From Elusimicrobiota bacterium (GTDB taxonomy: Bacteria > Elusimicrobiota > Elusimicrobia > Elusimicrobiales > UBA9959): 64,000 nucleotides of DNA. The translations under genes were made by a program, and so were the position numbers. Positions 6,474 to 54,349 of this stretch are shown piece after piece. The notes under the pieces are model-generated. The model did no database searches. It had not been told where the DNA came from and saw nothing but the letters and a program-made list of their open reading frames with translations. Location of the stretch: positions 31,881-95,880 of the forward strand of contig JBAXKK010000002.1 in NCBI GenBank assembly GCA_037137395.1, given 5' to 3'. Position 1 is the first letter of the stretch, and every line of letters begins with the position of its first letter.

Positions 6474-6488
6474 CAGGAGAAAAAAGAA

Positions 6489-20406: not shown

Positions 20407-20428
20407 GACAGCGCTAAAGCGCTGTCCT

Positions 20429-33642: not shown

Positions 33643-33650
33643 GAAAAACC

Positions 33651-34339: not shown

Positions 34340-34445
34340 GTTAATGGCGAGTGAAAGCCGCAGTAATTAATGGATAATGGCTGGGCACGGAAGTATCCGG
34401 AACTGCCGCGCTGTCTTACTGCCGTACTGTCACACTGACGACTAA
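34340..34445. repeat. degenerate word repeats (aatggcgagtg; actgNNN words), includes a 16-mer related to the mocA insert
   Basis: tcttactgccgtactg at 34414-34429 is 14/16 identical to the tandem unit at 48893-48924. Less regular than the other arrays. Confidence 0.55.
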
Positions 34446-36917: not shown

Positions 36918-36936
36918 AAAACGCAAACAGTGAAAC

Positions 36937-39305: not shown

Positions 39306-39323
39306 AAAATTATCTCCGATTTT

Positions 39324-39392
39324 CAGGTTACAGGGGTCAGGTTTCAGGCTACAGATAAAAAATTCCGCCTGCTACCTGCCACCTGTTACCTG
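39324..39392. repeat. heptamer array CAGGNNN / NNNCCTG inverted arms
   Basis: caggtta caggggt caggttt caggcta cagataa at 39324-39358. Inverted heptamers end in cctg at 39371, 39378, 39385 and 39392. Confidence 0.85.
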
Positions 39393-39895: not shown

Positions 39896-39904
39896 TTTGT
39901 CCTC

Positions 39905-40732: not shown

Positions 40733-40742
40733 GATATATCCT

Positions 40743-41615
40743 CTATTCGGTCACTTGCGACATGCCACCGGTCAGAATCATGGAGTTCAGAGCCCTCTCA
40801 AGCAGTACGCCGGACATCTCTCTGCGGTAAGCGGCTTCGGACCGGGCGTCAGTGATGGGCGAGACCTCGGTTTTAACCAGCGCCGCGGCCGTGCGTGCGT
40901 TCTCTTTATTAAGTACGCGCCCCGTCAGATAGTTTGCGGTTTTTACAGCCATGAGCGGCACTGGCGCCACTGAAGCGAGAGCTATGGAGGCGGACCGCAC
41001 TTTCTCCCCGTCAAGCTCCAGGGCGACAGCCACCGACGCCTTGGCAATGCCGAAATACGCCCTGGGACCGAGTTTCAAATAAGCGCCGGAGTGCTTCCAC
41101 TTGGGAACTTCAAAAGCCGTTATCAATTCATCCCTGCGCAGCACGGTCTGTTTGGGCCCGCTAAAAAAATTCCGCAGCGGTATTTTGCGCTTTTTGCCTC
41201 TGAGCTCAAGCCAGACATCGGCTCTTTCCGCGCAAAGGGCGCAGGCGCCGTCCGCGCAGGGGCTGGCGGTGGCGGCGTTACCGCCGATGGTAGCCATGTT
41301 CCTTAAAGAGGGGCTGGCAAAATGCGGTATGGCGGATCGGAGGGCGGGAAGCCACCGGCTTATAAGTTCGGAACCGCCTAATTCCGATATCTTGACTCCG
41401 GAACCGATAATCAGGGAGGTTTTTGTTTCTCTTATCCCTTTCAATTCTTTGATATCGCTTATATCCACCCAAACTCGCGAAGCGTCCAGGCCAGCGTTAG
41501 CTCCGGACACAAGGTCGGTACCGCCAGCCAGGTATTTTCTGGAACCGCCGTGAGAGGGCGGCAGCAGCCAGAGCTCTTTCAATGTCGCGGGTTTTACAAT
41601 GTAGGCGTTGGGCAT
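40743..41615 (-). CDS. FAD-binding medium subunit (CoxM/XdhB/YgfM-like), paralog A
   Basis: 290 aa. LAGGTDL and NMATIGGNAA motifs. Confidence 0.8.
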   Translation of the reverse strand: MPNAYIVKPATLKELWLLPPSHGGSRKYLAGGTDLVSGANAGLDASRVWVDISDIKELKGIRETKTSLIIGSGVKISELGGSELISRWLPALRSAIPHFASPSLRNMATIGGNAATASPCADGACALCAERADVWLELRGKKRKIPLRNFFSGPKQTVLRRDELITAFEVPKWKHSGAYLKLGPRAYFGIAKASVAVALELDGEKVRSASIALASVAPVPLMAVKTANYLTGRVLNKENARTAAALVKTEVSPITDARSEAAYRREMSGVLLERALNSMILTGGMSQVTE

Positions 41616-41628
41616 AGTGATTAAGTCA

Positions 41629-41733
41629 ATTCAAGATTCAAGATTCAAGAGATGCCAGCAATTTTTAATCCGCACTTTTAAACTTCAAATCCTTAGTCCC
41701 AAATCTTCAATCTGGAATCTTGAATCTTCAATC
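41629..41733. repeat. heptamer array ATTCAAG x3 with inverted ATCTTNA x5 arm
   Basis: attcaag at 41629, 41636 and 41643. atcttca atctgga atcttga atcttca atcctat at 41703-41737. Confidence 0.85.
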
Positions 41734-42258
41734 CTATATATCTGTTTTGGCTTTTTCCACGGCGCTTATTACCTTTTCGTAGCCGGTACAGCGGCACAGA
41801 TTGCCGGTCAGTCCGCGCTTGATATCTTCCACTGTAGCGTGAGGATTTTCTTTTAAAAGCGCTTCCGACGCAATAATCAGGCCGGGCGTGCAGAAGCCGC
41901 ACTGCACGGCGCCTTCTTCCATAAAAGTTTTCTGCAGGGGATGCAAGCCGCCGTCACGGCCTTTAAGTCCTTCTATAGTGATTAAACGCTTGCCCTGCAG
42001 CTGAACAGCCATCATCAGGCAGGAGTTGACGGCTTTGCCGTCAACGAGCACCAGACAGGCGCCGCACTCACCTTCACCGCAGCCCTCCTTAGTCCCTTTA
42101 AGACCGAGGTCCAGGCGAATAAATTCGATAAGGGACCTGGAGGAATCCAGGTCCCGTTCCACCTTTTCTCCATTCACAAAACATTTGAGGGAGAACTTAG
42201 CGCGGTGCGTTATTTTTTTATTCTTTTCGGTCACGCGTATGCCTGTCCTAAAAATCAA
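41734..42258 (-). CDS. (2Fe-2S)-binding small subunit of molybdenum hydroxylase (set 1)
   Basis: 174 aa. CGEGECGACLV and CGFCTPG...CRCTGY motifs. The annotated start overlaps the upstream gene by 11 nt. Confidence 0.88.
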   Translation of the reverse strand: MIFRTGIRVTEKNKKITHRAKFSLKCFVNGEKVERDLDSSRSLIEFIRLDLGLKGTKEGCGEGECGACLVLVDGKAVNSCLMMAVQLQGKRLITIEGLKGRDGGLHPLQKTFMEEGAVQCGFCTPGLIIASEALLKENPHATVEDIKRGLTGNLCRCTGYEKVISAVEKAKTDI

Positions 42259-43573
42259 AGCCCATTCCGACCAGGAACTTCACGCCGCTCAGCGTCAATG
42301 TGTCGGCTTCGCCGGCTATGCCGCCGCGCGTAAAGTTCATAGTATTCATTTCGTAGCGCAGTTCGGCCACGAGTTGTGTCTTGTCCGCTATCCGTATCCT
42401 CAAGCCTACGGGTACGCGGACCATTAAGCCCAGCGCTAATTCCTCCGTGGGCTTAACAAAGGAGCCATTGGTATAGCCCTTTACATAAGGCAGCGTGAGC
42501 GAGTTGAGCGACATCCCAATTCCAAGTCCGAAATAGGGGTCGACCTTCTCGCCGGGATGTCTGATAAGCAGATCGCCGCTGATACCGAAGGTTTTGACTG
42601 TGGCGTAATCGTTGGTATAAAACTCCATACTCCCGGGAGCGGCGCCGTTGAGGCTCCAGGTGGTCTTCTGAGCCGCTATATTGCGTTTCTCATAAGAGAA
42701 TTCCAGATCTCCGCCCAGGGCGCCGTTTCCGAAGCCGCCGACGCGGAAAGCGATCGGGCCGAAGCCTTCGGTAACGAGTTTTTCGAATTTAACGCTTCTG
42801 TAATTGCTGGAAGCATAAGGCGACAGGGGATTACCGAGAGAAATACCAAGGGCGTTACTATAGGTGTTATCAAGCTGTATATTCCCTTTGGAATTAGAAA
42901 ATTCCAGGTCCATTTTAGGAGAACCGAAACCCATAAACACGTCAAAGAAGCCATACTGATGTTTTCCGCGCGGCTTCCTGACGGCGGCTGTCTGCTTCAT
43001 GGCTGGCTGCTCATAAGCAGGCTGCTCATACGGCTGCGCGTACGCGGACTGCTGTGACTGGCCCGGCTGCGTGGCCGCGTCGCCCACCCAGTCCTTTTCC
43101 AGATCCACCTGAGAAGCGCCTATGGCTTGCGCGGTTTCGGTTTTTATAAGACGGGCGTTAACCTCTATCTTGCCGGCCTGCATTTCCACCAGGGTGCCGG
43201 TAACAATGGCCTGCACGCCCAGGAGTTTCCCAAGTTGCTGAGTCGAAGTGGCGTCCATCATGCCGGTGGACTGGAGCTTGAGCTCACCCATAACCTTATC
43301 CAGCATGCTGCGCTCCACAACTTCAAATTTCCGCTGTTTTATCAGGCGCATAGTTATGCGTTCCGACACTATAGCCCCGTCCTTAGTCGCAACCCGGCCG
43401 TCCGCGTAGGAGAAGGGCAGAATTGCGATCTTCTTATTGGTCAGGGTGGTTCCCGCCTCGCTTATCTCCCGGGCTATCTGATCGTACTTGTCCTCAGCGA
43501 AAACTACGCCGTTAAAATTTAAAAACAAAGCGCCTAATATAAGAACTCCGGCAATTTTAAATCTGCTCATCAT
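42248..43573 (-). CDS. outer-membrane protein: N-terminal LpoB/CsgG/FlgO-like domain, Q/P-rich linker, C-terminal beta-barrel
   Basis: 441 aa. Signal peptide, KKIAILPFSY...FEVVERSMLDKV...AIVTGTL module, QPYEQPAYEQP linker, alternating-hydrophobic strands ending ...VGMGFDF (terminal Phe). Confidence 0.6.
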   Translation of the reverse strand: MMSRFKIAGVLILGALFLNFNGVVFAEDKYDQIAREISEAGTTLTNKKIAILPFSYADGRVATKDGAIVSERITMRLIKQRKFEVVERSMLDKVMGELKLQSTGMMDATSTQQLGKLLGVQAIVTGTLVEMQAGKIEVNARLIKTETAQAIGASQVDLEKDWVGDAATQPGQSQQSAYAQPYEQPAYEQPAMKQTAAVRKPRGKHQYGFFDVFMGFGSPKMDLEFSNSKGNIQLDNTYSNALGISLGNPLSPYASSNYRSVKFEKLVTEGFGPIAFRVGGFGNGALGGDLEFSYEKRNIAAQKTTWSLNGAAPGSMEFYTNDYATVKTFGISGDLLIRHPGEKVDPYFGLGIGMSLNSLTLPYVKGYTNGSFVKPTEELALGLMVRVPVGLRIRIADKTQLVAELRYEMNTMNFTRGGIAGEADTLTLSGVKFLVGMGFDF

Positions 43574-43619
43574 TCCACCCTCCTAAAGTTCAACCTGCGT
43601 TTTTAAAAAGATTTTTGAT

Positions 43620-45908
43620 TTATTTTTTCTTAAGCCCGCCCCAAACCTTTTCAGGCAGGATGGGAACGCTTTTCACCCTGACACCGGAAGCGTTCCTGAC
43701 CGCGTTTGCGATAGCCGGGGCCACGCCAATTAAGGGGACTTCGCCCATGCCTTTAGCCTTATACGGGCCTTCGGCATAGGGCTTCTCTATAAAAGTTATA
43801 TCATATTCCGGTTTGTCGGCGGTAGTGGCCATCACGTAGTCGGTGAAATTAGGATTGAGCATGATGCCGTTCTTGTACAGCAGGTTCTCATAAACGGCCC
43901 AGCTCATGCCCTGCAGTATGCCGCCCTGCGCCTGGCCCTCCGCGAGTCTCGGGTTTATGATCTTGCCTACGTCATATGCCGCGCAGATCTTAAGCACCCT
44001 GGTCACGCCTGTCTTCAGGTCCACCTCAACCTCCGCCACATCTGCGGAGTAGGAATAAGTCACGTAGGCGTCGCCCTGACCGTCGCCCATGTTGTAAGAG
44101 GTGTGCGGCGACACATACCAGCCCTGCTCGCCCATTTTCATGCGGAGGTTCCAGCATTCTTTAACAACTTCGGCAAAAGTAACCGACACTTCGCCTATAT
44201 AGAAGACGCCCTGGAAGGCGCTCATGGGTTTAGAGCCTTCAGCGCCCTTGGCCAAAAGAAGATTAAAAGCGGTCTTAAAGATGTTCGCCCTCATCGGCGC
44301 GGCGGCTTCTATGATGGCGTTGCCGCTCATCAGAGTGGTACGGCTTGCCACGGTGGGGCCGGAGTCCGACACCTTGGAAGTATCCACTTCCTCCAGTTTT
44401 ATATTCTCATAAGGGGCGTTAAGGGTCTCGGCACAGATCTGGCTGAGCACGGTCAAGGCGCCCTGACCCATCTCTGCGTTGCCGACATTTACTCCGACGG
44501 TAGCGTCTTTATAAATATTGACATACGCGCCGGCTCGGTCAAGGTAACGCCCTTTGGCGCCAAGGCCCACGCCGTAATACGCCACGGAAACGCCCATGCC
44601 CCTCACAACATCACCTTTAGACTTCAGCATTAAGCCTTCAGCCTTTCGACTGTCCCAGCCGGATTTATTCTTCACGGTTTCAAGAAGCTCTTCAAGCCCG
44701 CAGGAAGCCCCGATTATCTGACCGGTGGCGGTTTTATCTCCAGTGCGCAGAATGTTTTTCATGCGCAGCGCTACCGGATCAATTTTCAGCTTGTGCGCCA
44801 ATTCATCCACCAGCGATTCCTGCGCGAAACAGATCTGCGGCTGCCCGAAACCGCGGAAAGCGCCGCAAGGCACCTTATTGGTGGCCGCGGCATAGGCTTC
44901 TATGCGGATATTATCTATCTTGTAAGGCCCGGCGGCGTGCACTGCGCCCCGCCAGAGAACTATTGGTGACAGGGTGGCGTAAGCGCCCCCGTCCAGAACA
45001 TATTTCACCACGCAGCCGGTGATCTTCCCGCTCTTGTCGGCAGCATACGTAACCTTGGACCACGACGGATGCCTCTTGGACATGGAGTTAAAATCTTCTT
45101 TGCGGTCGTAAATGAGTTTGACCGGACGGCCGGTCTTAAGGGCGCACAGGGCCGCGTGCGCCGCCACAAGCGCCGGGACATCTTCTTTGCCTCCAAAACC
45201 GCCGCCGGTCACGGTTTGTATGACCTTCACTTTGTGATAGCCAAGGCTGGCGGCGGCCGCGACTCCGTCGAGAACATAGAACGGACACTGGGTGGAACTG
45301 TATATGGTCAGGCCGCCGTCGGATTCCGGAACGGCGACAACGCCCTGGGTTTCAAGATAAGCGTGAACCTGGTAATTAGTGGTAAATTCATCTTCCACCA
45401 CGGCATAAGCTTCTTTAATGGCTTTATCCGGGTCGCCTTTCTTAATGATAAATTTGGCAAAAATATTGTCGTCGCCGTGAAGTTTTATTGACTTTTTTTC
45501 CAGAGACTTCAGCGGGTCCTCGATGAACGGGAGTTCTTTATACTTCAGCTCCATAAGCCGGGCCGCTTTCTTAGCGGCATTTTGAGTCTCCGCCACCGCA
45601 AGCGCCACGGTTTCGCCCTGAAACCGCGCTTCCTTCTCAGGCAGAAAAGGATAATCGTTCACTACCAGCGGCCATTTATTTACGCCTCGCACGTCCTTGT
45701 ATGTAACTAAAGTCACATAGCCGGGAACTTGCCGGGCTTTGGCGTCGGAAATGGACAGGATTTTTATGCGGGGTTTTGGGCAACGCACAGCTGCCGCGTA
45801 CAGCATACCGGAGAATTCCTGATCGGCGGCGTATTTAGCCCGTCCAGTCGCCTTTATAAGCGCGTCTTTCCTGGGCAATGATTTTCCTACATAAGAAAGG
45901 TTATCCAT
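43620..45908 (-). CDS. xanthine dehydrogenase family molybdopterin-binding large subunit (set 1)
   Basis: 762 aa. GGGFGGKE, FRGFG and GMGEVP motifs. Confidence 0.88.
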   Translation of the reverse strand: MDNLSYVGKSLPRKDALIKATGRAKYAADQEFSGMLYAAAVRCPKPRIKILSISDAKARQVPGYVTLVTYKDVRGVNKWPLVVNDYPFLPEKEARFQGETVALAVAETQNAAKKAARLMELKYKELPFIEDPLKSLEKKSIKLHGDDNIFAKFIIKKGDPDKAIKEAYAVVEDEFTTNYQVHAYLETQGVVAVPESDGGLTIYSSTQCPFYVLDGVAAAASLGYHKVKVIQTVTGGGFGGKEDVPALVAAHAALCALKTGRPVKLIYDRKEDFNSMSKRHPSWSKVTYAADKSGKITGCVVKYVLDGGAYATLSPIVLWRGAVHAAGPYKIDNIRIEAYAAATNKVPCGAFRGFGQPQICFAQESLVDELAHKLKIDPVALRMKNILRTGDKTATGQIIGASCGLEELLETVKNKSGWDSRKAEGLMLKSKGDVVRGMGVSVAYYGVGLGAKGRYLDRAGAYVNIYKDATVGVNVGNAEMGQGALTVLSQICAETLNAPYENIKLEEVDTSKVSDSGPTVASRTTLMSGNAIIEAAAPMRANIFKTAFNLLLAKGAEGSKPMSAFQGVFYIGEVSVTFAEVVKECWNLRMKMGEQGWYVSPHTSYNMGDGQGDAYVTYSYSADVAEVEVDLKTGVTRVLKICAAYDVGKIINPRLAEGQAQGGILQGMSWAVYENLLYKNGIMLNPNFTDYVMATTADKPEYDITFIEKPYAEGPYKAKGMGEVPLIGVAPAIANAVRNASGVRVKSVPILPEKVWGGLKKK

Positions 45909-45926
45909 AAATTTACCCGCTATATC

Positions 45927-45990
45927 TAAAACGGAAAGAAAGTTGCTTTACCCTTTCCGCTTCCCGTTTTCCGCTTTACGACTTTCCGCC
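45927..45990. repeat. heptamer array CTTTNCG (ctttacc ctttccg cttcccg ttttccg ctttacg actttcc)
   Basis: Six units in exact 7-nt phase at 45946-45987, with a short inverse word aaaacggaaagaaag at 45927-45941. Most of the array lies inside the XdhC 3' end and encodes ...ESRKAENGKRKG. Confidence 0.8.
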
Positions 45991-46784
45991 ACCCTCATAT
46001 GCTTGCCGTCTTTTTTGTAATGCAGCATTATTATCTGGGCCATCACCGAAACTGCTATCTCGCCAGGCGTCTTGCCGCCCAGATTGAGACCGATGGGCGA
46101 ATAAACCCGCTTGTCCTTGAGCGGATAAAGCTTTTTCTTACCTGCCAGACGGAATATTTCCCGCACTTTATCGGCGCTGCCTATCATTCCGATATAAGCC
46201 GCCTTTGTCCGCATAACCGCTTCAAGGCATTCCCTGTCCAGGGCGTGGCCCCGCGTGACAATGACCGCATAGGTATTCTCGTCCACTCCGGCGCGTGCTA
46301 CGGCTTCATGCGGCCTTTCAAGAATGATATCGGAGGCGTGTGGGAATCTTTCTTTGTTGGCGAATTCCGGCCTATCGTCGGCGACAAGGTACGGGTAGCC
46401 GGCCATATCCGCGGCAGCGGCTATCTTCATTCCCACATGGCCCGCGCCCAGTATCAATATTTTAAGCGGGCTCTTGTATACATCTATAAATATTTCCACG
46501 CGGCCCATGCATATCATGCCGGTATTGCCTTTGGGTTTGAGGTCGAAAACAAATTTGCCCCCGACGCCTTTCTTAATGCAGGCCACGGCCTGTTTTATCG
46601 CCAGAGCCTCCAGGGTCCCCCCGCCGACCGTACCCTCTATAGAACCGTTCTCGAACACCAGCATTTTGGCGCCGGCCTCGCGCGGTGTGGAACCATCCAC
46701 GTCAATGACGATCACGAAAGCGGCGTTCTTCCCTCCGTCCACCGCTTCGCCCAGCATTTTGATAAGATTCCTGGATTCCTTCAT
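45948..46784 (-). CDS. XdhC/CoxI family molybdenum-cofactor insertion accessory protein
   Basis: Start set at MKESRN (TAATG overlap with the upstream ORF). XdhC_CoxI N-domain (DVDGSTPREAGAKM) and Rossmann C-domain (ILGAGHVG). Confidence 0.8.
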   Translation of the reverse strand: MKESRNLIKMLGEAVDGGKNAAFVIVIDVDGSTPREAGAKMLVFENGSIEGTVGGGTLEALAIKQAVACIKKGVGGKFVFDLKPKGNTGMICMGRVEIFIDVYKSPLKILILGAGHVGMKIAAAADMAGYPYLVADDRPEFANKERFPHASDIILERPHEAVARAGVDENTYAVIVTRGHALDRECLEAVMRTKAAYIGMIGSADKVREIFRLAGKKKLYPLKDKRVYSPIGLNLGGKTPGEIAVSVMAQIIMLHYKKDGKHMRVAESRKAENGKRKG

Positions 46785-47311
46785 TATTTCACCACCCACT
46801 CGTCAATTTTTTTATCCGTGCCGTACTCAACGATCTCAACCGCGGCTGAATCCTTTCCCAGGGCTTTAGCCCAATCGTTGGCCACTATCTTCACCAATTG
46901 TTCCTGCTGGGATCTTTCAAGGCTATTGAAACGCTGATCCACATAAACACGCAGCGCGTCATCCTTATAACCGATATCATCCACGCCCAGATTACTCAGC
47001 TCGCCAGCCCCTTTTTCCTTTATCGCCCGTATCAGTCCGTCTTTTACATCATTAGTGATTGCGCCTGTTTTAACCGGCGCGTCCGGCACTTTGGCGGAAA
47101 ACGAACTATCCACAAGCTTGCCGGTTATGGCAAGAGAAAGAATCACAAAGAGTATTTTTAATCGCGGCGAGCTTTTTTTTTCAACTTTCAGAGACTTCGG
47201 TCCAGCGTTGAGCTTCACACCGTATGACGGGCACATATTCGCGTTCCCGCGCGCTTGCAATAAAGCCCTGTAATACCTGTTAATACCGCCCATACTCGTC
47301 ACCTCACTCAT
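46784..47311 (-). CDS. hypothetical membrane-anchored protein
   Basis: 175 aa with one TM segment (LKILFVILSLAITG). Translationally coupled to xdhC. No family recognised. Confidence 0.4.
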   Translation of the reverse strand: MSEVTSMGGINRYYRALLQARGNANMCPSYGVKLNAGPKSLKVEKKSSPRLKILFVILSLAITGKLVDSSFSAKVPDAPVKTGAITNDVKDGLIRAIKEKGAGELSNLGVDDIGYKDDALRVYVDQRFNSLERSQQEQLVKIVANDWAKALGKDSAAVEIVEYGTDKKIDEWVVK

Positions 47312-47352
47312 GTTGTAATCGTAGAATCCAGAATATTATATAACTTATGTGA

Positions 47353-48600
47353 CTACAGAAAAATCCAGTATATTATCCCATTTATCAGGGTCAGCGGCAC
47401 TCCGGCCTTCGCGAATTCTGTAAAGGTCAGGGTCTCCCCGGCTTTTTTCTCTGCGTTCTGGATAATGATGACATTGCTGGCCGCGCCCAGGATGAACATA
47501 TTACCCGCGATAGTTGAGCCGGCGGCCAAAGCCATAAGCTGCGGGGTCCCGGCTCCGGCGTGCGCAATCGCCGGCATATAAAGAGCGACCAGCGGCACAT
47601 TGGAAATCAGCTGGCTCACGACCACGCTCACGGAGAGTATCATAGGCGTGGAGGCGATTTCAAGGCCGGAGCTCGCTATTGCTTCCTGAAAGAATCCGAT
47701 GTCCCAAACGCTTTTCATCAGGATGAACATAGCCGCGAAAAAAACAAGCGTGCTCCAGTCCGTCTTTTTCAGCAGTTCCGTCCTTCGCGAACTAAAAACG
47801 AGCGGCGGCAGCATGGCCGCCAACGCGATATAGGTGAGTTTTAAATTCGCAGCGGGAACTAAATAAACAGCCAGAATCTTAACGGCAACCATGACACCCA
47901 TAACGATAAGCGAGACCTTGGAAAGAAAACTGAGGTAATGATCCTTTATAGGCTCCTGGGAATGCACGAGCGCACCTTTAGAAAAATGCCCGCGGTACAT
48001 AATTCTCAGCAGTAAAAAAGCGAAAACCAGATTCAGAACCGTGGGAAGGAAAAGATATCTTAAGAAGGTAATAAAAGGCGCCGCCACGCCGCCGTTCACG
48101 GCCACCAGAAGATTCTGCGGATTGCCGATAGGGCTCATTACGCTGCCCGTGGTAATGCCGAACGCCAGAGTCAGCAACAGAAGCTTCGGGGACATTTTGT
48201 GCTTTTTGGCCAACAGCAGGACCACTGGCGTACCGATAATAGCCAATGTATCGTTCATCAGAGCGGCGGAAGCGAAGGCTGAGCCAAAAAGAACAAAGAA
48301 CACCAGCTGACCAAGCGACTTGGCCCGCTTGAAGAAGGAATACTCCAAATGTGCCAGATAACCACTCATTTCAAGCGCGGCCCCGACCACGAACATGCCG
48401 AACAGGAAAAAGATAACATCAAAATCTATCGCTCGCAGAGCCGCCGCCGGACCGATATCTCCCGATAGCAGCACCGCGGCCGCGCCCGCGAACATCACCT
48501 GCCAGATCTCAACCCGGAAACGCCCCACCCGACGGACGGCAATCAGCACAAAAACAATAATGAGGACGATTATGGGAAACATAATGTAGCGCGATAGCAC
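47353..48600 (-). CDS. ArsB/NhaD/SLC13-superfamily anion permease
   Basis: 415 aa, polytopic. CitMHS/ArsB-like repeats (GNPQNLLV, SNVPL). Confidence 0.65.
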   Translation of the reverse strand: MLSRYIMFPIIVLIIVFVLIAVRRVGRFRVEIWQVMFAGAAAVLLSGDIGPAAALRAIDFDVIFFLFGMFVVGAALEMSGYLAHLEYSFFKRAKSLGQLVFFVLFGSAFASAALMNDTLAIIGTPVVLLLAKKHKMSPKLLLLTLAFGITTGSVMSPIGNPQNLLVAVNGGVAAPFITFLRYLFLPTVLNLVFAFLLLRIMYRGHFSKGALVHSQEPIKDHYLSFLSKVSLIVMGVMVAVKILAVYLVPAANLKLTYIALAAMLPPLVFSSRRTELLKKTDWSTLVFFAAMFILMKSVWDIGFFQEAIASSGLEIASTPMILSVSVVVSQLISNVPLVALYMPAIAHAGAGTPQLMALAAGSTIAGNMFILGAASNVIIIQNAEKKAGETLTFTEFAKAGVPLTLINGIIYWIFL

Positions 48601-48657
48601 GACAGCAAGATGGCACGTCAGATAGCAACGAGATTTTAAGTCAGGCGGATTTACTAC

Positions 48658-49347
48658 CTACCAGTTGCGACCAAGTAGTTGTTGGTACTCCTCTGGCGTG
48701 TCAAAATCGCGGATAACACCTGCATCTGCCACCACGAGATCCAGAACTTTCACCGACTGGTGATGCGTGACCCAATGCAGGCCCTTGTCATTGGGGCCTT
48801 CAAAACAAAGCTGAAAATATTTTCGCGGAATAATTATTGGATGCCCGCGTTTGAAGGAAAGAGGATTAACGCCAGCTGGAGGCACCACGCTATCTTGCTG
48901 TCGTACTGTCTTGCTGTCGTACTGTCCTGCTGTCGCGCTTTCCGGGGCCTCGTCACGCCGGCACTTGGGAATAACAAGGAAATCTCTGCTGGATCGCCAA
49001 AAATCGGCTATCAGTTTATAGGTTTCCGGCTTTATTAGGGGCTGGTCAACCAGACAGATCATCACGGCTTCGGACCGGTAACTGACAAGTTTAAGGGCCG
49101 CCCTGACCGAAGCTATCTGCCCCAATTCCGGAGTCTCATTGAAAGCAACTCTTATCTCACCGGGGTTCCAGGCGGCAAGAACTTCCGCGCGGCTGGCGCC
49201 GAGAACAACAATAGTCTCCGTTACGCCCGCGGCATTGACTCCCGCGCAGACCGATTCCAGAAAATTACGCCCGTCATACTCAAGCAGCGCTTTTGTCCGC
49301 CCCATTCTGGAGGAATCCCCACCGGCCAGCACTAAAGCGCTTATCAT
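48658..49347 (-). CDS. mocA: MobA-like NTP transferase (molybdenum cofactor cytidylyltransferase MocA-like) with ~35-aa repeat-derived insertion
   Basis: 229 aa. LVLAGGDSSRMG..K signature, DQP motif and KRGHPIII. The insert lies between IPKCR and KRGHP. Confidence 0.75.
   Translation of the reverse strand: MISALVLAGGDSSRMGRTKALLEYDGRNFLESVCAGVNAAGVTETIVVLGASRAEVLAAWNPGEIRVAFNETPELGQIASVRAALKLVSYRSEAVMICLVDQPLIKPETYKLIADFWRSSRDFLVIPKCRRDEAPESATAGQYDSKTVRQQDSVVPPAGVNPLSFKRGHPIIIPRKYFQLCFEGPNDKGLHWVTHHQSVKVLDLVVADAGVIRDFDTPEEYQQLLGRNW
48893..48940. repeat. 16-nt tandem repeat inside the mocA-like CDS (tcttgctgtcgtactg x2 plus a degenerate third unit)
   Basis: Units at 48893-48908 and 48909-48924 are identical. 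The third unit at 48925-48940 matches 12/16. 3 x 16 = 48 nt keeps the reading frame. Confidence 0.85.
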
Positions 49348-50720
49348 CTAGCAGCCTTTTCAACCAGCTTCCTGGAAAGCTTATTGGCTCGTTCCGCAAG
49401 CATGAACTCATCGACATTGACGAGTCGGCCGTTCTTGACCACGATCTTGCCGTTCACGATCGTATACTTGGTCCTGTGCCCGGCCCCGCAGAAGAGCAGC
49501 GAAGCCAGCGGATCCGAACCTGAACCGGCGAAATCCAGTCCGCTCACGTCGAAAACAGCCAGATCGGCGGCCTTACCGGGCTCTATGGAACCGATGTCGT
49601 TGCGGCCCAGCACTTTTGCGCCGCCCAAAGTTGCTATTTTAAAAACATCTCTCGCCGGCATGGACTCCGCGCCGGACTTCACGCGGTTAACCAACATGCA
49701 CTGGCGCAGCTCGCCCAGCATATCCGAAGAGTCGTTGGAGGCAGAGCCGTCCACTGCCAGTCCTACCGGCACTTTGTTATCCAGGAACATTCGCACAGGC
49801 GCTATGCCGGAGCCTAAACGCAGATTGGAGGACGGGCAATGAGCCACCCCCGTTCCGGTAGCCCCCATCCTTTTGGCCTCACACTCGTTTATATAAACGC
49901 AATGGGCGAACCAGGCGTTCCCCTCGGAAACCCAGCCCACTGATTCCATATAATCAAGCGGGCGCATCTTGAAAAGTTTAAGGCAGAAAGCTTCTTCATC
50001 TATAGTTTCGGCCAGATGAGTATGCATCCTGACGCCCCATTTTTTGGCCATTTCAGCGGTAAGCTTCAGGAGTTCGGTGGTCACGGAAAAAGGCGAGCAG
50101 GGCGCCATAACCATCTGCGTCATGGGGAATTTATTTTTATCGTGGAATTTATGGACCAGGCGCTCGCAGTCCTTCATGATAAAATCCTCGCTCTGCACAA
50201 CAGAGTCGGGCGGCAACCCTCCCTTTGAACGGCCGCGTGACATTGAGCCGCGGGTCGGGTGGAAGCGCATACCTATTTCCCGCGCGGCTTCCACCTGCGT
50301 ATCAATAAAAAATCCGCTGTTCTTTCTGGGGAAAAGATAAAGGTGGTCGGTACTGGTCGTACAACCGGTTAAAAGCAGTTCGCCCAGGCCGACCTGAGTG
50401 CTGGCGTAAACAGACTCAGGTGAGATATGCCGCCATATTTCATAGAGGTAAAGGAGCCAGTCAAAAAGCTTGGCGTCCTGCACTGCGGGTAGGTTGCGCG
50501 TCAGTGTTTGATAAAGGTGATGATGTGTATTCACGAAGCCGGGCAGGACCACGCAGTTTTTAGCGTCTATAACAGTATCGGCCTTCACTCTGAGACCTTT
50601 GCCGATCTTCTTTATCTCGGGGCCCTCTATATAAATATCGCCGCCCTTAATTTCCCGGCCTTCGCCGTCCATGGTCGCCAGGACCAAAGCGTTCTTTACG
50701 AGTATAGACTTATAAGCCAT
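49344..50720 (-). CDS. amidohydrolase-superfamily deaminase (8-oxoguanine/guanine deaminase or chlorohydrolase-like)
   Basis: 458 aa. VNTHHHLYQT metal site, HLAE, and typical length. Confidence 0.8.
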   Translation of the reverse strand: MAYKSILVKNALVLATMDGEGREIKGGDIYIEGPEIKKIGKGLRVKADTVIDAKNCVVLPGFVNTHHHLYQTLTRNLPAVQDAKLFDWLLYLYEIWRHISPESVYASTQVGLGELLLTGCTTSTDHLYLFPRKNSGFFIDTQVEAAREIGMRFHPTRGSMSRGRSKGGLPPDSVVQSEDFIMKDCERLVHKFHDKNKFPMTQMVMAPCSPFSVTTELLKLTAEMAKKWGVRMHTHLAETIDEEAFCLKLFKMRPLDYMESVGWVSEGNAWFAHCVYINECEAKRMGATGTGVAHCPSSNLRLGSGIAPVRMFLDNKVPVGLAVDGSASNDSSDMLGELRQCMLVNRVKSGAESMPARDVFKIATLGGAKVLGRNDIGSIEPGKAADLAVFDVSGLDFAGSGSDPLASLLFCGAGHRTKYTIVNGKIVVKNGRLVNVDEFMLAERANKLSRKLVEKAAR

Positions 50721-50827
50721 GATCGCTCCTTATAAAAACCCACCACCCTTATATTATCCAAAATTTGTTCATCGGATAACCATATGTTTGTATCGCGTCC
50801 GTTTTTGTGGAATAATATCAGAAGGTT

Positions 50828-51769
50828 ATGTCTTTTCTCAAATTAAGAAAGCCTCTTAACGGTCTTAAGGAACTCCGGGACTTTGATCCCGGCCTCTCCG
50901 ATCTTGCCGCCCTGCTGATAGGCGCCAAGCCGGTGCTTTACACGGATTTCTCCGCCGCCGGTTGGCCCTATATAAAAGAACTGTGCGAAGCGCTGAAACT
51001 AAAGTACCTTATGCCTGAACCCGTTTACGGAACGGCGGGCTTCAAAGCTGTACCGGATTCCGGAAAACGGATGCTGCTTATAGGTAAAAATCAGAAAACC
51101 CTGAAAGACGCCGCCAAAAGTTGGCATCGCTCCCCCACCGATCCGGCCTGGGGCCTCCTGCTCGGCTATCCGGAATGCTGCGTTAAGGCTTATATAGAAT
51201 GGCGTTCGGTGGCGGACAAAACCGACCTTGTTAATTTCACCCTGAGCAGGACCCGGAAAAAAGAACGATATCACTTCGGCCTAAACAACATCTTTAATTA
51301 TTTCTCGCGGCTGACAGGAAAGCCGGCCGACATGGAAGGTTTCGCGCGCATAAGAGCAGCCAATAAAGACCTGGATATTTCAACTTTGCAGATAATCAGC
51401 TGGCACCCCTGCGCCTATGACTGCGGCCCCAGCGGGAAACTTGCCAAAGAGATCTTCTCATTCCTTCAACATTATCTGCCCGGGCGCGCGGCGGAACTAA
51501 AAAGCCGACTTGCAAAACCTGTTCTCTTCCGGGATAAATACGAGTACCTGCTTTTGGATGGTCTGGCAAAGGGCGCTGAAGTCCGCTACCGAGGCATAAC
51601 CAAACCCGAAGGCCTGCTGCCTAAAGAACTAACGCGCAAGATAGCGGCCGGAAATTCACTTCGCGCGGAAAAAGGCCGCGTCACGGTATTTAAAGGTTCC
51701 AAACCTCTTTACGAAATAGTCTCAGACAGGCCTTTTTCGCTGTTAAACTTTACGGTTTCACAACGATAA
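50828..51769 (+). CDS. hypothetical Cys-motif protein (GYPECC ... WHPCAYDC)
   Basis: 313 aa. Divergent from the deaminase operon. Motifs vaguely resemble DUF483-type proteins. Not verified. Confidence 0.4.
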   Translation: MSFLKLRKPLNGLKELRDFDPGLSDLAALLIGAKPVLYTDFSAAGWPYIKELCEALKLKYLMPEPVYGTAGFKAVPDSGKRMLLIGKNQKTLKDAAKSWHRSPTDPAWGLLLGYPECCVKAYIEWRSVADKTDLVNFTLSRTRKKERYHFGLNNIFNYFSRLTGKPADMEGFARIRAANKDLDISTLQIISWHPCAYDCGPSGKLAKEIFSFLQHYLPGRAAELKSRLAKPVLFRDKYEYLLLDGLAKGAEVRYRGITKPEGLLPKELTRKIAAGNSLRAEKGRVTVFKGSKPLYEIVSDRPFSLLNFTVSQR

Positions 51770-51800
51770 TGCTAAAAATTATAGAATCTATTGTAATCCG

Positions 51801-51892
51801 GGCTGTTTGATGAGCATAGCTCTTGATACGGCACCGGCATAGCCTGGGCCGTTTGATGAGCATAGCTCTTGATACGGCACCGGCATAGCCTG
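51801..51892 (+). promoter_or_regulatory. perfect-phase 46-bp tandem duplication abutting the RBS of the DPD/YgfK-like gene
   Basis: Copy 1 at 51801-51846 and copy 2 at 51847-51892 differ at 2 positions. Each contains an imperfect palindrome gccgtttgatgagc ata gctcttgatacggc. Confidence 0.6.
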
Positions 51893-51901
51893 GAGAAAAA
51901 T

Positions 51902-54349
51902 ATGTCAGAAAAAATAAATTTCCTGTCAGACGCTCAGCTTAAATCGGAGGCAGAGCGCTGTCTCTATTGCGAAGAAAAACCATGCAAGGCAGCCTGTCCC
52001 GCGGATTGCTCCCCGGCCGACTTCATAATGGCGGTACGTCAAATGGAAAAATCAGACTTCAAGAGGGCTGCCAAGCTGATAATGGGTCACAATACTTTCG
52101 GCGGGGTCTGCGGAGCCGTCTGCCCCGACTGGTTCTGCGTGAAAGCCTGCTCTAGAAAACTTTTCGACAATCCGATCAATATTCCCGCCGTCCAAGCCGC
52201 AATTGTGCAGAAGGCTAAAAAAATGGGAGTGATGCCAAAGTTTAAGAAGGCCGGTTCCACCGGTAAAAAGGTCGCCGTAATAGGCGCGGGACCGGCGGGC
52301 TTCGCCGCGGCCGCGACCCTCGCCCAGCTGGGCTATAAAGTGGATGTTTTCGAGAAGGATAAAAAGGCGGGCGGCGCCTGCAATCTGATACCGGACGCTC
52401 GCTTCCCCAAGGAAGTCCTACGCACTGAAATAGAATTTGTAAAAACTCTGGGCGATATCCGTGTTAAAACAGGTGCGGCCGTCAAAAACCCCGCTTCCCT
52501 GCTTAAGAAGTATGACGCGATTATAGTCACCGCAGGGGTGGAAAAGCAGATAAAACTGAACATCGAGAACGAAAACCTCGGTGTGGAAGGCCTGGAATAC
52601 CTTCGCAACACCTCCAAATACAAAGTAAAGGGCAAAAATGTGGGCGTAATAGGCGGCGGCGCCGTAGCAGCCGACTGCGCCATGAAGGCGCTGGAACTGG
52701 GCGCGGCCAAGGCGGAGATTTTCACCCGCAAGAATATAGGCGATATACAGCTGCCGGAACGGGAATTGCGCGACATACTCAAGGCAGGGATCAACATAAA
52801 CGCCAAGAGCCGCCTCACGGGGATACTAAAAGCCGGGAAAGGAATAAGAGTTGTGCGCCTCGACAACAAGGCTAAAGATATCCCGGGCACTGAACAGGCA
52901 CGCGCGGATATAAACTTTGTTGTGCTAGCCATAAAAAACACACCTGTCTTTGACGACCAAAAGCAGAAGGGAGTGTTTCTCGCCGGCGACTGCCGCAATG
53001 GGGCCGCGACCGTGGTGGAGGGCGTCGCTTCCGGCAAGAACGCCGCCATGGAAGCCCATACTTTTATGCAAGGCAAGAAACCCCCATCTATTCCCAACAA
53101 CCTTAAAAGCGTTACTATTCTTAAGGGCAGAGATATGCTGCCGGTTGATCTGACCACGGACTTTTTCGGCCGCAAGATCCGTTCCCCCTTCATCATCTCA
53201 GCCTCTCCCCATTCCGACGGCTACGACCAGGTGAAGCTGGCCTACGAGGCAGGTTGGCCCGGCGTGGTGATGAAAACCGCCTTCGACGGCCTGGATATAC
53301 ATATTCCTGCGGAGTACATGGTCACGTTCAGCGATTCAACTTACGGTAATTCCGACAATGTTTCAGGCCACGCGCTTGACCGCGTGTGCCGGGAAGTGGC
53401 GAAACTCGTAAAAGAATATCCGGATCGCCTGACTGCGGCTTCCACAGGCGGACCTGTTACCGGCAACGACGAAGCTGACCGCAAGGTCTGGCAGTCCAAC
53501 ACGTTAAAGCTTGAGCGCGCCGGCGCTATGGCTGTTGAATATTCTTTATCCTGCCCGCAGGGCGGAGACGGAACAAAAGGCGACATCGTCTCCCAGGACC
53601 CGGAATTGGCTGCCAAGATTATCGGCTGGGTTATGGAAGTCTCAGACCCGGAAGTTCCAAAATTATTTAAACTGACCGGAGCCGTAACCGCCATCTACCA
53701 GATAGTGGACGCCATACGCAAAGTCTACGATAAATATCCGCACAAGAAGGCCGGCATCACGCTGGCCAACTCCTTCCCGGCGCTCGCTTTCCGAAAAGGC
53801 GTCGGCACATGGGACGAAGGAATGATAGTGGGGATGAGCGGCGATGGCGTAACGCCCATCAGCAATCTGACTATTTCCAAGGCTTCAAAGCTCAATGTTC
53901 CGATTTCCGGTAACGGCGGGCCCATGGATTACAAAGCCGCGGCCCACTTTCTGGCCCTGGGCGCCAGGTCAGTGCAGTTCTGCACTATCGTGATGAAGTA
54001 CGGCTTTGGGATAATTGATGAACTGAACTGGGGCCTCAGCCACCTGCTTGAGGAAAAGGGCCTTAAATCTGTGGACGAGCTTATCGGCATAGCGCTGCCA
54101 AAACCCGTCACGGACTTTATGGATCTGTCTCCGGTAAAGGGCATTCCGGAGTCCGACGGAGAGCTCTGCATGCACTGCGGAAATTGTCTCCGCTGCGGCT
54201 ACCTGGCAATAAGCCTCGACGGCAAGAAGGTCCCCAAGGCTGACGCCTCAAAATGCGTAGGGTGTTCCCTTTGCGTTAAAAAGTGCTTCGCCGGCGCGCT
54301 GAAGATGCGAAAGCGCACCCCGGCCGAACAGGCGCGGACGCCTGAATAA
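51902..54349 (+). CDS. fused GltD/PreT-like NAD(P)H flavoprotein plus PreA/dihydropyrimidine-dehydrogenase-like TIM barrel plus 2x[4Fe-4S] (YgfK/DPD-like)
   Basis: Start at MSEKINF. N-terminal Cys clusters, VAVIGAGPAGFAAA and VGVIGGGAVAADCA dinucleotide folds, DHODH-like barrel, and C-terminal CMHCGNC...CVGCSLC. Confidence 0.8.
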   Translation: MSEKINFLSDAQLKSEAERCLYCEEKPCKAACPADCSPADFIMAVRQMEKSDFKRAAKLIMGHNTFGGVCGAVCPDWFCVKACSRKLFDNPINIPAVQAAIVQKAKKMGVMPKFKKAGSTGKKVAVIGAGPAGFAAAATLAQLGYKVDVFEKDKKAGGACNLIPDARFPKEVLRTEIEFVKTLGDIRVKTGAAVKNPASLLKKYDAIIVTAGVEKQIKLNIENENLGVEGLEYLRNTSKYKVKGKNVGVIGGGAVAADCAMKALELGAAKAEIFTRKNIGDIQLPERELRDILKAGININAKSRLTGILKAGKGIRVVRLDNKAKDIPGTEQARADINFVVLAIKNTPVFDDQKQKGVFLAGDCRNGAATVVEGVASGKNAAMEAHTFMQGKKPPSIPNNLKSVTILKGRDMLPVDLTTDFFGRKIRSPFIISASPHSDGYDQVKLAYEAGWPGVVMKTAFDGLDIHIPAEYMVTFSDSTYGNSDNVSGHALDRVCREVAKLVKEYPDRLTAASTGGPVTGNDEADRKVWQSNTLKLERAGAMAVEYSLSCPQGGDGTKGDIVSQDPELAAKIIGWVMEVSDPEVPKLFKLTGAVTAIYQIVDAIRKVYDKYPHKKAGITLANSFPALAFRKGVGTWDEGMIVGMSGDGVTPISNLTISKASKLNVPISGNGGPMDYKAAAHFLALGARSVQFCTIVMKYGFGIIDELNWGLSHLLEEKGLKSVDELIGIALPKPVTDFMDLSPVKGIPESDGELCMHCGNCLRCGYLAISLDGKKVPKADASKCVGCSLCVKKCFAGALKMRKRTPAEQARTPE

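What the first reader, a model, noticed from the sequence alone, without database searches (positions are those of the whole stretch)
48853..48957. In-frame insertion of a 16-nt tandem word repeat into the catalytic domain of the MocA-like cytidylyltransferase
About 35 extra residues (DEAPESATAGQYDSKTVRQQDSVVPPAGVNPLSF) sit between IPKCR and the conserved KRGHPIII segment. At the nucleotide level the core is tcttgctgtcgtactg repeated twice perfectly (48893-48924), plus a degenerate third unit (48925-48940). Three 16-nt units make 48 nt, which preserves the reading frame, whereas one or two units would not. A 14/16-identical copy of the word (tcttactgccgtactg) sits in the tpx-dfx intergenic repeat region (34414-34429). 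The intergenic word-repeat system has therefore apparently invaded a coding sequence and been tolerated only at a frame-preserving copy number. Copy-number change would switch the gene off, a potential phase-variation mechanism for Mo-cofactor maturation.
Basis: partly seen in the sequence, partly recalled or inferred. Interest (0 to 1): 0.65.

Follow-up and report, generated by a model that had tools for sequence, protein, structure and literature searches.

The report
Short-repeat array inside MocA surface loop
A molybdenum-cofactor enzyme gene of a freshwater Elusimicrobia bacterium carries, in a floppy surface loop, a run of 8-letter DNA words of the kind that fills this genome's gene spacers; it looks like a tolerated passenger rather than an on/off switch.

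Summary
On the + strand, 48893-48924 is a perfect 2 x 16 nt tandem repeat. It lies inside a degenerate period-8 array (48890-48945, about 7 units, GACAG-type words on the coding strand). The array is in frame in a 229-aa MocA-type cytidylyltransferase gene (48658-49347, minus strand).

The roughly 35 extra residues (131-165) form a disordered loop between a beta-strand and the invariant KRGHP motif, and the core fold is intact.

Across Elusimicrobia this loop is a hot spot. One large clade keeps a fixed 10-residue loop. Related clades have loops of 10-73 residues whose DNA consists of 7- or 8-nt word arrays. The same word families recur in spacers, a protein tail and a signal peptide of the same genomes. 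The claim that genome-wide word repeats colonised a coding loop is therefore supported.

Phase variation is not supported. The array has the same length in three genomes (81-100% protein identity). Clusters at 90% identity show no loop-length variants. Only two units are perfect.

An inverted partner array lies just upstream of the downstream CitMHS transporter gene and is predicted to pair with the in-gene array in the mRNA. That pairing is specific to this lineage and untested.

Verdict: a new variant of a known kind (5-11-nt simple-sequence repeats and in-frame repeat passengers), of moderate interest.

The parts
48658..49347 (-). MocA-type molybdenum cofactor cytidylyltransferase gene (229 aa)
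   Evidence: PF12804, E 3.8e-29. The best NCBIfam model is TIGR03310 MocA, at 129 bits, below its 186-bit cut-off because the insert splits the match. The AF2 model has pLDDT 88. The top Foldseek hit is the MocA-related Rv0371c (2we9), TM 0.90 normalised to the target. Neighbours are XdhC and xanthine-dehydrogenase-family subunits.
48853..48957 (-). Lineage-specific loop insert, residues 131-165, between strand 124-130 and the invariant KRGHP motif
   Evidence: Alignment A1. The loop survey shows a 10-residue loop in most Elusimicrobia. pLDDT is below 50 at residues 137-155 and no secondary structure is predicted.
48890..48945 (-). Degenerate period-8 word array (coding strand NNNGACAG, 6-7 units); the perfect 2 x 16 nt is at 48893-48924
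   Evidence: TRF, unit scan, coding-strand print. The length is the same in L081 and L001.
48588..48632 (-). Inverted partner array of the same word family in the mocA-CitMHS spacer, ending about 10 nt upstream of the CitMHS ATG
   Evidence: Inverted repeats I4, I7 and I8: 34 nt, 76% complementary, 276 nt apart, among the four longest in the window. Word match at 48595-48610. Predicted duplex of -52.9 kcal/mol, z -5.8. The stem is present in the MFE and centroid folds. L081 lacks exactly one 8-nt unit here.
47353..48582 (-). CitMHS-family transporter gene immediately downstream; the likely start is the ATG at 48582-48580
   Evidence: Pfam PF03600. Conservation begins at ATGTTTCCC in the three-genome alignment. 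The gene call in L081 starts at the same ATG.
34403..34442 (+). Solo array of the same CTGYC period-8 word family (5 units), ending 26 nt upstream of the dfx start codon
   Evidence: It has no structure of its own (z +1.0).
45948..45990 (-). C-terminal tail of XdhC, encoded by a different word array (GTAAAG-type; AESRKAENGKRKG*). In L081 and L001 the same tail is encoded by the GACAG/GGCAG word family

Best explanation
The 16-nt tandem repeat is the best-preserved part of a 48-nt array of 8-nt words. The array sits in a lineage-specific, disordered insertion in a surface loop of a MocA-type cytidylyltransferase. These Elusimicrobia genomes carry many arrays of degenerate 7- or 8-nt words, mostly as inverted pairs that form hairpins between genes. 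The arrays turn over quickly, and whole arrays are replaced between close relatives. The loop between the IPxCxR strand and KRGHP tolerates extra residues. In one group of clades it has therefore repeatedly gained, exchanged and lost such arrays. Selection removes every state that breaks the frame or introduces a stop codon. In this lineage the array is a stable, near-neutral passenger translated as a floppy peptide, and it is not a switch. Shown here: the anatomy, the loop location, the hot-spot pattern, the sharing of words with other loci, and the stability of array length in three genomes. Inferred: how arrays arrive (slipped-strand expansion combined with copying or conversion between arrays) and that the peptide is neutral.
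For: The array and frame are shown directly. The insert is a disordered loop on an intact MocA-like fold. For the hot spot, one large clade has a fixed 10-residue loop RTFRAxDSRL, while the RCxR clades have loops of 10-73 residues that differ between close relatives (P0007 has 37 and P0010 has 10). More distant Elusimicrobia and the solved structure have short loops, so the short state is ancestral. The insert DNA in other lineages consists of 7-nt arrays: GTCACAR x5 plus CTCTACC x5 in L002, CAAGTCW x6 in L018, CCCAGAC x7 in L026 and CCCTAAC x4 in L006. The same words occur elsewhere in the same genome: an 18/18 match to the XdhC tail in L001 (and L081), CCCTCTA x4 in a signal peptide in L007, and AGGGTAN x4 beside a promoter in L002. 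Genomes with a loop insert have 0.13 period-7/8 arrays per kb elsewhere, against 0.034 per kb in short-loop Elusimicrobia. Word depth over the array jumps from about 10 to 343 in the source metagenome, through many contigs with unrelated flanks. For turnover, 3 of 4 orthologous array sites carry a different word family in L081 and L001 than in the window. For stability, the three genomes have the same array length, the indels beside it are in frame (-6 and +24 nt), and clusters at 90% identity show no loop-length variants.
Against: How the arrays arrive was not observed. Matches between loci are only 13-21 nt long, so independent slippage on similar seeds cannot be fully excluded. The array is no more diverged (87-91% identity) than the constrained core (87-90%). 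It is less diverged than third codon positions (75-83%) and the rest of the loop (70-83%). This hints at some constraint or homogenisation that a purely neutral passenger would not need. The array and its inverted partner kept their word family while three other sites were replaced. The array-density comparison rests heavily on the window itself (12 of the 24 arrays).
Confidence: 0.6

Rival explanations
1. Phase-variation switch: slippage changes the unit number, shifts the frame, and reversibly turns Mo-cofactor cytidylylation off.
For: Units of 8 or 16 nt are not multiples of three. Gain or loss of 1 or 2 units truncates the protein before KRGHP. The intergenic partner array differs by exactly one 8-nt unit in L081, so slippage by whole units does occur in this family.
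Against: Array length is identical in the window, L081 and L001, and the only differences are substitutions. Clusters at 90% identity show no loop-length variants, and the identical proteins P0003 and P0007 are each seen on 11 contigs. Only two perfect 16-nt units are present and the 8-nt units are degenerate, which makes a weak slippage substrate compared with known contingency loci (general knowledge). The gene is a housekeeping cofactor enzyme in a purine-catabolism cluster, not a surface or restriction function.
Confidence: 0.07
2. Coding-embedded RNA arm: the in-gene array is kept because it pairs in the polycistronic mRNA with its inverted partner just upstream of the CitMHS start codon. 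The resulting long-range stem would control translation, processing or stability of the transporter message.
For: The predicted duplex is -52.9 kcal/mol (z -5.8) in the window, -48.7 (z -4.0) in L001 and -40.1 (z -2.7) in L081. Between 22 and 33 array bases pair with the leader in the MFE and ensemble of the full segment of about 400 nt. The stem is present in the MFE and centroid folds, with overall z -2.1. The pair is among the longest inverted repeats in the window. The array is more conserved than third codon positions and the rest of the loop. This pair kept its word family while 3 other array sites were replaced. Other array pairs in the window form intercistronic hairpins whose proximal arm lies 14-35 nt from the next start codon.
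Against: Lineages with heptamer arrays in the loop (L002, L003, L007) have no complementary partner downstream (z about 0), so this is not a conserved design. Two nearby arrays of one word family in opposite orientation are complementary by construction. Three closely related genomes give no real covariation test. Co-transcription of the two genes was not shown, because no RNA runs were found.
Confidence: 0.15
3. Discrete mobile element: the insert is a copy of a small non-autonomous element (RPE-, MITE- or REPIN-like) that transposed in frame into the gene.
For: Dispersed near-copies of the array are abundant in the metagenome. Whole spacer hairpins are exchanged like cassettes between close relatives. 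In-frame insertion of small palindromic elements into metabolic genes is known from Rickettsia (PMC10969869).
Against: No conserved full-length element was found. Similarity between loci is confined to runs of words 13-21 nt long, and copies differ in unit number and word order. No terminal inverted repeats or target-site duplications are visible at the loop. The in-gene array has no second arm inside the gene. A RAYT or transposase association was not tested.
Confidence: 0.12
4. Assembly artefact: the tandem units were created by mis-assembly of a dispersed repeat.
For: Logan contigs break at the array, and other loci share its words.
Against: The same array, in frame, is present in independent assemblies: the window protein on 3 contigs, L081 (JGI) and L082 (ENA), and L001 (an NCBI MAG). 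The reading frame and the conserved C-terminal third continue correctly across it.
Confidence: 0.02

Closest known systems
Long simple sequence repeats with 5-11-nt units (Mrazek et al. 2007, as summarised in PMC4679880 and PMC4692102)
   Same: These are tandem arrays of short words, with heptamers the commonest. They are over-represented in the spacers of particular bacterial lineages, often have about four units, are under-represented in ORFs, and are thought to arise by polymerase slippage.
   Different: Here the words are degenerate and differ from locus to locus. Arrays usually come as inverted pairs that form hairpins. One protein loop is a recurrent landing site across many lineages.
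TAACTGA heptamer repeats of marine Beggiatoaceae, cyanobacteria and Bacteroidetes (MacGregor 2015, PMC4679880)
   Same: They are mostly intergenic and often lie a few nucleotides upstream of start codons. A minority lie inside ORFs in the orientation that avoids stop codons, at the periphery of proteins.
   Different: That system has a single conserved heptamer genome-wide, almost always as direct repeats. Here there are many word families, inverted pairs, and an internal loop rather than a protein end.
GGGAATC-type heptamer repeats of Xanthomonas and Nostoc (Rehm et al. 2015, PMC4692102)
   Same: They favour four units, lie between co-directional ORFs and within about 50 nt of start or stop codons, and are occasionally arranged as inverted pairs.
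   Different: Those repeats are G-rich and form quadruplexes. The words here are not G-tracts, and the predicted structures are ordinary hairpins.
Rickettsia palindromic elements (RPEs) inserted in frame in metabolic genes (reviewed in PMC10969869)
   Same: Repetitive DNA sits inside protein-coding genes, is translated as extra peptide, and is compatible with the fold.
   Different: RPEs are discrete elements of about 150 bp with conserved sequence and an encoded conserved peptide. Here only short word runs are shared, and the peptide changes with the word.
Contingency loci (SSR-driven phase variation, e.g. Haemophilus, Neisseria)
   Same: A repeat whose unit is not a multiple of three lies inside an ORF, so a change in unit number shifts the frame.
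   Different: There is no long perfect tract, no unit-number variation among relatives, and the gene is a housekeeping enzyme.
REPINs / BIMEs (REP doublets forming hairpins; recalled from memory, not checked here)
   Same: Inverted pairs of short repeats form hairpins between genes, and whole units are present or absent between strains.
   Different: REP sequences are conserved 20-40-mers tied to a RAYT transposase. Here the arms are degenerate tandem word arrays from many families, and a RAYT link was not tested.

Membership tests
MocA (molybdenum cofactor cytidylyltransferase, TIGR03310 / PF12804) | MobA-like NTP-transferase domain with the N-terminal LAGGxSxRMG nucleotide-binding motif | tested here: met
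   PF12804 at E 3.8e-29 over residues 4-193. LAGGDSSRMG is present. The fold matches the MocA-related Rv0371c, TM 0.90 normalised to the target.
MocA (molybdenum cofactor cytidylyltransferase, TIGR03310 / PF12804) | Score above the curated equivalog cut-off | tested here: not met
   TIGR03310 scores 129 bits against a cut-off of 186. The match is split in two by the insert. Insert-free homologues are named MocA by their sources.
MocA (molybdenum cofactor cytidylyltransferase, TIGR03310 / PF12804) | Genomic association with MCD-dependent xanthine-dehydrogenase-family enzymes and XdhC | tested here: met
   XdhC, two sets of Mo, FAD and Fe-S subunits, and amidohydrolases flank the gene in L081. 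The gene order is the same in the window.
MocA (molybdenum cofactor cytidylyltransferase, TIGR03310 / PF12804) | CTP-specific formation of molybdopterin cytosine dinucleotide | not testable with these tools
   This needs an enzyme assay.
Long simple sequence repeat (5-11-nt unit) | Tandem array of a 5-11-nt unit longer than chance allows | tested here: met
   Period 8 with 5.5-7 units, and a perfect 2 x 16 nt. The chance expectation is about 1.5e-5 per 64 kb.
Long simple sequence repeat (5-11-nt unit) | Genome-wide excess of such arrays, mainly in spacers | tested here: inconclusive
   The window has 12 further period-7/8 arrays with at least 3 copies, mostly intergenic. The rate is 0.13 per kb in insert-bearing genomes, 0.034 per kb in short-loop Elusimicrobia and 0.06 per kb in other phyla. 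No whole genome was available.
Contingency locus (phase-variable SSR) | Unit number varies among close strains or within a population | tested here: not met
   Array length is the same in three genomes and clusters at 90% identity hold no loop-length variants. Variation within a population could not be tested because only assembled contigs are held.
Contingency locus (phase-variable SSR) | Unit length not divisible by three inside an ORF, so that slippage shifts the frame | tested here: met
RPE / MITE-like in-frame element | Discrete element with conserved full-length sequence and ends in many copies | tested here: not met
   Only word runs of 13-21 nt are shared between loci, and no terminal repeats or target duplications are seen.
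RPE / MITE-like in-frame element | Inserted in frame at a structurally permissive site | tested here: met
   The insert is a disordered loop. Other copies lie in a protein tail and a signal peptide.
REPIN | Inverted doublet forming a hairpin | tested here: met
   Four of five intergenic pairs fold with z from -3.4 to -7.0. The in-gene array pairs with an arm 276 nt away.
REPIN | Association with a RAYT transposase and a conserved REP sequence | not tested
   No RAYT search was done. The arms are degenerate word arrays rather than a conserved REP.

The most novel reading that the evidence does not exclude
These Elusimicrobia may have a so far undescribed, actively spreading system of hairpin cassettes built from inverted arrays of 7-8-nt words. 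The cassettes are exchanged wholesale between close relatives and can lodge in permissive parts of proteins (a loop, a tail, a signal peptide). In this lineage one arm, embedded in the mocA coding sequence, would have been co-opted to form a long-range mRNA stem with the leader of the downstream transporter gene. A disordered protein loop would then exist chiefly to carry an RNA regulatory arm.
Probability: 0.12. Interest if true: 0.8.

Novelty: new variant of a known kind. Interest (0 to 1): 0.42.

Why it matters
The finding shows how a genome-wide tendency to make short-word repeats can write new, disordered peptide segments into an otherwise conserved enzyme. One loop serves as a natural permissive site across many lineages. 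For annotation, it explains why these MocA homologues fall below the curated family cut-off. For protein engineering, it marks a loop next to KRGHP that tolerates from 0 to more than 60 extra residues. For genome biology, the rapidly replaced inverted word-array hairpins between genes, and the possible pairing of a coding-embedded arm with a downstream leader, are testable leads on post-transcriptional control in a phylum with almost no genetics.

Tried and rejected
The genome-wide contexts of the word family therefore rest on the window, the related loci and the loose ends.

2. Unit-number heterogeneity in reads could not be judged. All 15 runs are held only as Logan contigs, and these break at the array. 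The 'goes back' joints come from short contigs or contigs with unrelated flanks, which probably represent longer arrays at other loci.

3. The period-7 array at 44614-44645, inside the xanthine-dehydrogenase-family Mo subunit, was considered as a second in-frame insertion and rejected. It lies in a gap-free conserved stretch and is only weakly periodic.

4. TRF counts at score 30 did not separate Elusimicrobia from other phyla because of 2-copy noise. Only arrays with at least 3 copies were informative.

5. A pure-Python mismatch search timed out and was replaced by blastn-short.

6. Array-level covariation of the loop with the downstream spacer across lineages was tested and not found.

7. 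Inversion of the 276-nt segment between the inverted arrays was considered as a possible switch. No strand-changing joints were seen in the contigs, but contigs are weak evidence.

8. Literature searches for Elusimicrobia repeats found nothing relevant. The search for cyanobacterial small dispersed repeats did not retrieve the paper I recalled.

Full report
**1. What is there**

The + strand at 48893-48924 reads TCTTGCTGTCGTACTG twice without a mismatch, followed by a degenerate third unit. Tandem Repeats Finder reports it both as period 16 (2.7 copies, 96% matches, score 79) and as period 8 (5.5 copies). A unit scan gives seven 8-nt units with a CTGTC-like core at 48890-48945. On the coding (minus) strand these read NNNGACAG.

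The array lies in frame in ORF 48658-49347 (229 aa). This ORF is a MobA-like NTP transferase (PF12804, E 3.8e-29). Its best curated match is MocA (TIGR03310, 129 bits). That is below the 186-bit cut-off because the match is split in two around the insert.

Sequence comparison with the solved MocA-related protein Rv0371c aligns residues 2-118 and 168-225. About 48 query residues are left where the structure has 14. About 1.5e-5 perfect 16-nt tandem duplications are expected by chance in 64 kb.

The 14/16 copy at 34414-34429 is real, and there is another on the opposite strand at 48595-48610. That makes four matches with up to three mismatches, against 0.24 expected.

**2. Where it sits in the protein**

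An AlphaFold2 model built on 33 homologues is confident overall (pLDDT 88, pTM 0.85). The exception is residues 131-164, with pLDDT below 50 at 137-155 and no secondary structure. These residues lie between strand 124-130 and strand 165-167. The model superposes on Rv0371c with TM 0.90 (normalised to the target) and 1.9 A rmsd.

The insert is therefore a disordered loop appended to an intact fold, directly before the KRGHP motif. That motif is invariant in the alignment.

The neighbourhood fits a MocA role. It contains XdhC, two sets of xanthine-dehydrogenase-family Mo, FAD and Fe-S subunits, and several amidohydrolases.

**3. The loop is a family-wide hot spot for short-word arrays**

The organism is a freshwater Elusimicrobia bacterium, judging by the source names of the homologues and the kinds of runs that hold the sequence.

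I examined 115 homologues ordered by a neighbour-joining tree of the loop-free core. One large clade has a fixed 10-residue loop, RTFRAxDSRL. Clades with an RCxR start have loops of 10-73 residues. These differ even between close relatives: P0007 has 37 residues and P0010 has 10 with the same RCRREAG start, and P0004 has 45 while P0014 has 19. More distant Elusimicrobia and the solved structure have short loops, so the short state is ancestral.

At the DNA level the extra sequence in other lineages consists of heptamer arrays:
- L002: (GTCACAR)x5, a spacer, then (CTCTACC)x5.
- L007: (CAGTCAC)x8 plus (TCTACCC)x3.
- L018: (CAAGTCW)x6.
- L026: (CCCAGAC)x7.
- L006: (CCCTAAC)x4.

This explains recurring peptide motifs such as SQVTSHKSQVT and PLATDHSPL. 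The window and its two closest relatives have the period-8 version.

**4. The words are shared with other loci of the same genomes**

The window's spacers hold many degenerate arrays of 7-8-nt words, usually as inverted pairs:
- (GCCATAN) at 20428/20545 and 33650/33701.
- (GTAAAGA) at 36937/36976.
- (NNNCAGG) at 39321/39368.
- (ATTCAAG) at 41629/41702.

Four of these five pairs fold into long hairpins, with z from -3.4 to -7.0 against dinucleotide shuffles.

Loop words recur elsewhere in the same genome:
- In L001 an 18/18 match, and in L081 a 17/18 match, lies in an array that encodes the C-terminal tail of XdhC (DSAAARQHDSAAD, compared with AAARQYDSKTVRQQD in the loop).
- In L007, (CCCTCTA)x4 encodes part of a signal peptide (TLYPLPSTLS).
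- In L002, (AGGGTAN)x4 lies beside a -35 box.

In the source metagenome, word depth rises from about 10 to 343 exactly over 48897-48923. The rise comes from dozens of contigs with unrelated flanks.

Genomes with a loop insert carry 0.13 period-7/8 arrays per kb elsewhere, against 0.034 per kb in short-loop Elusimicrobia. This comparison leans on the window itself, which supplies 12 of the 24 arrays.

Between the window and L081 or L001, three of four orthologous array sites carry a different word family:
- Fer2|FAD spacer: ATTCAAG-type in the window, GCTTATA-type in the relatives.
- FAD|Mo spacer: NNNCAGG in the window, the 16-nt TTTAGAGGCAAAGC family in the relatives.
- XdhC tail: GTAAAG in the window, GACAG in the relatives.

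The arrays therefore turn over quickly, and in whole blocks. The qualifier is that this has happened repeatedly at one permissive loop.

**5. Is it a switch?**

The arithmetic holds. Gain or loss of one or two units (8 or 16 nt) shifts the frame and removes KRGHP and the C-terminal third. Changes of three 8-nt units keep the frame.

The comparative evidence argues against hypermutability:
- The array has the same length in the window, L081 (86% protein identity) and L001 (81%).
- The perfect 2 x 16 nt is shared by the window and L081, and the differences are substitutions.
- The indels lie beside the array and are in frame (-6 nt in L081, +24 nt in L001).
- The intergenic partner array differs by exactly one 8-nt unit in L081. 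Slippage by whole units therefore does occur where the reading frame does not matter.
- Protein clusters at 90% identity contain no loop-length variants. The apparent length differences are start-codon calls.
- The identical proteins P0003 and P0007 are each seen on 11 contigs.

Raw reads were not available and Logan contigs break at the array. Rare variants within a population therefore remain untested. I put phase variation at about 7%.

**6. A lineage-specific RNA possibility**

The in-gene array has an inverted partner at 48588-48632. This ends about 10 nt upstream of the CitMHS start codon (ATG at 48582, supported). The pair (34 nt, 76% complementary, 276 nt apart) is among the four longest inverted repeats in the window.

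Predicted duplex energies against shuffled leaders are -52.9 kcal/mol (z -5.8) in the window, -48.7 (z -4.0) in L001 and -40.1 (z -2.7) in L081. In full folds of the segment of about 400 nt, 22-33 array bases pair with the leader. The stem appears in both the MFE and centroid structures, with overall z -2.1.

The array is 87-91% identical between the three genomes. That is similar to the constrained core (87-90%). It is higher than core third codon positions (75-83%) and the rest of the loop (70-83%).

Against a designed function, lineages with heptamer loops have no complementary partner downstream. Two nearby arrays of one word family in opposite orientation are complementary by construction. 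Co-transcription was not shown. I rate this reading at about 15%.

**7. Comparison with what is known**

Tandem repeats with 5-11-nt units, heptamers above all, are a recognised class in some bacteria:
- Mrazek et al. 2007, as summarised in PMC4679880 and PMC4692102.
- TAACTGA repeats in Beggiatoaceae, which lie near start codons and occasionally at the periphery of ORFs.
- GGGAATC-type repeats in Xanthomonas and Nostoc, which favour four units between co-directional ORFs and are sometimes inverted.

In-frame repeat passengers in metabolic genes are known from Rickettsia palindromic elements (PMC10969869).

This case differs in four ways. It has many degenerate word families rather than one. 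The arrays are habitually arranged as inverted pairs forming hairpins. Arrays are replaced wholesale between close relatives. A single internal enzyme loop serves as a recurrent landing site across a large part of a phylum.

It fails the defining tests of a contingency locus, because unit number does not vary. It also fails those of a discrete RPE or MITE, because there is no conserved full-length element and there are no element ends.

**8. Verdict**

The most likely account (about 60%) is a tolerated, frame-filtered simple-sequence array in a permissive disordered loop. It would be a by-product of a genome-wide and fast-evolving word-array system. It is a new variant of a known kind, of moderate interest. 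The broader array system and the possible coding-embedded RNA arm are the parts worth following up.

Noticed in passing
window 20428-20575; 33650-33729; 36915-37009; 39321-39392; 41629-41733: Spacers between genes hold inverted pairs of degenerate 7-nt word arrays. The word family differs from locus to locus (GCCATAN, GTAAAGA, NNNCAGG, ATTCAAG). Four of the five pairs fold into long hairpins (z -3.4 to -7.0). The arm nearest the next gene lies 14-35 nt from its start codon.
   Followed up: partly
window 39306-39385, 41616-41733 and 45948-45990, compared with L081:19853-20072, 17559-17689, 13325-13455 and the matching stretches of L001: At orthologous positions in genomes whose MocA proteins are 81-86% identical, the whole array or hairpin is replaced by one from a different word family, while the flanking genes stay conserved. 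This looks like cassette-like turnover.
   Followed up: partly
window 45948-45990 (minus strand); L081:13340-13395; L001:13925-13980: The C-terminal tail of XdhC is encoded by a word array. It is GTAAAG-type in the window (AESRKAENGKRKG*) and GACAG/GGCAG-type in the relatives (DSAAARQHDSAADVTSLQNTRHK*). This is a second protein segment written by the repeat system.
   Followed up: partly
L007:12960-13005: (CCCTCTA)x4 lies within the predicted signal peptide of a 587-codon ORF (TLYPLPSTLS). It is the same word as the second array in that genome's MocA loop. A (GGCTGAA)x3 array lies just upstream.
   Followed up: no
window 4941-4992 and 7868-8032: Arrays of a 16-nt word (TTTAGAGGCAAAGCNN) in opposite orientations lie about 3 kb apart and bracket two genes (5223-7853). 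There is also a local inverted copy at 7868-7917. The same family fills the FAD|Mo spacer in L081 and L001.
   Followed up: no
window 51800-51893: A 46-nt direct repeat (2 copies, 97% identical) lies immediately upstream of, and overlaps, the start of ORF 51869-54349. It is unlike the short-word arrays.
   Followed up: no
window 33680-33700: The spacer between the two arms of the 33650/33701 array pair contains GGTATAAT, a good -10 box. The arms would therefore bracket a promoter element upstream of the tpx-like gene.
   Followed up: no
window 48583-48600: The CitMHS transporter gene has no recognisable Shine-Dalgarno sequence between the array and its ATG (GTGCTATCGCGCTACATTATG). The dfx gene, by contrast, has AAGGAG after its array. 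MacGregor 2015 likewise notes few canonical ribosome-binding sites in spacers that contain repeats.
   Followed up: no
window 48897-48923, in runs X1-X8: Word depth spikes up to about 30-fold over the array. Several of the foreign contigs continue with a similar tail (GTCGGACTGAA..ATGA..), which suggests that many copies of this family sit just upstream of start codons elsewhere in these lake communities.
   Followed up: partly
window 39000-51000; L081:1-20681: The gene cluster looks like an anaerobic purine or xanthine degradation island. It holds two xanthine-dehydrogenase-family enzyme sets, XdhC, MocA, three amidohydrolases, a CitMHS transporter, and a CsgG/FlgO-like gene between the dehydrogenase subunit genes.
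   Followed up: no
window 44614-44645: A weak period-7 array lies inside the Mo subunit gene. It sits in a conserved, gap-free region identical in L081, so it is not an insertion.
   Followed up: yes
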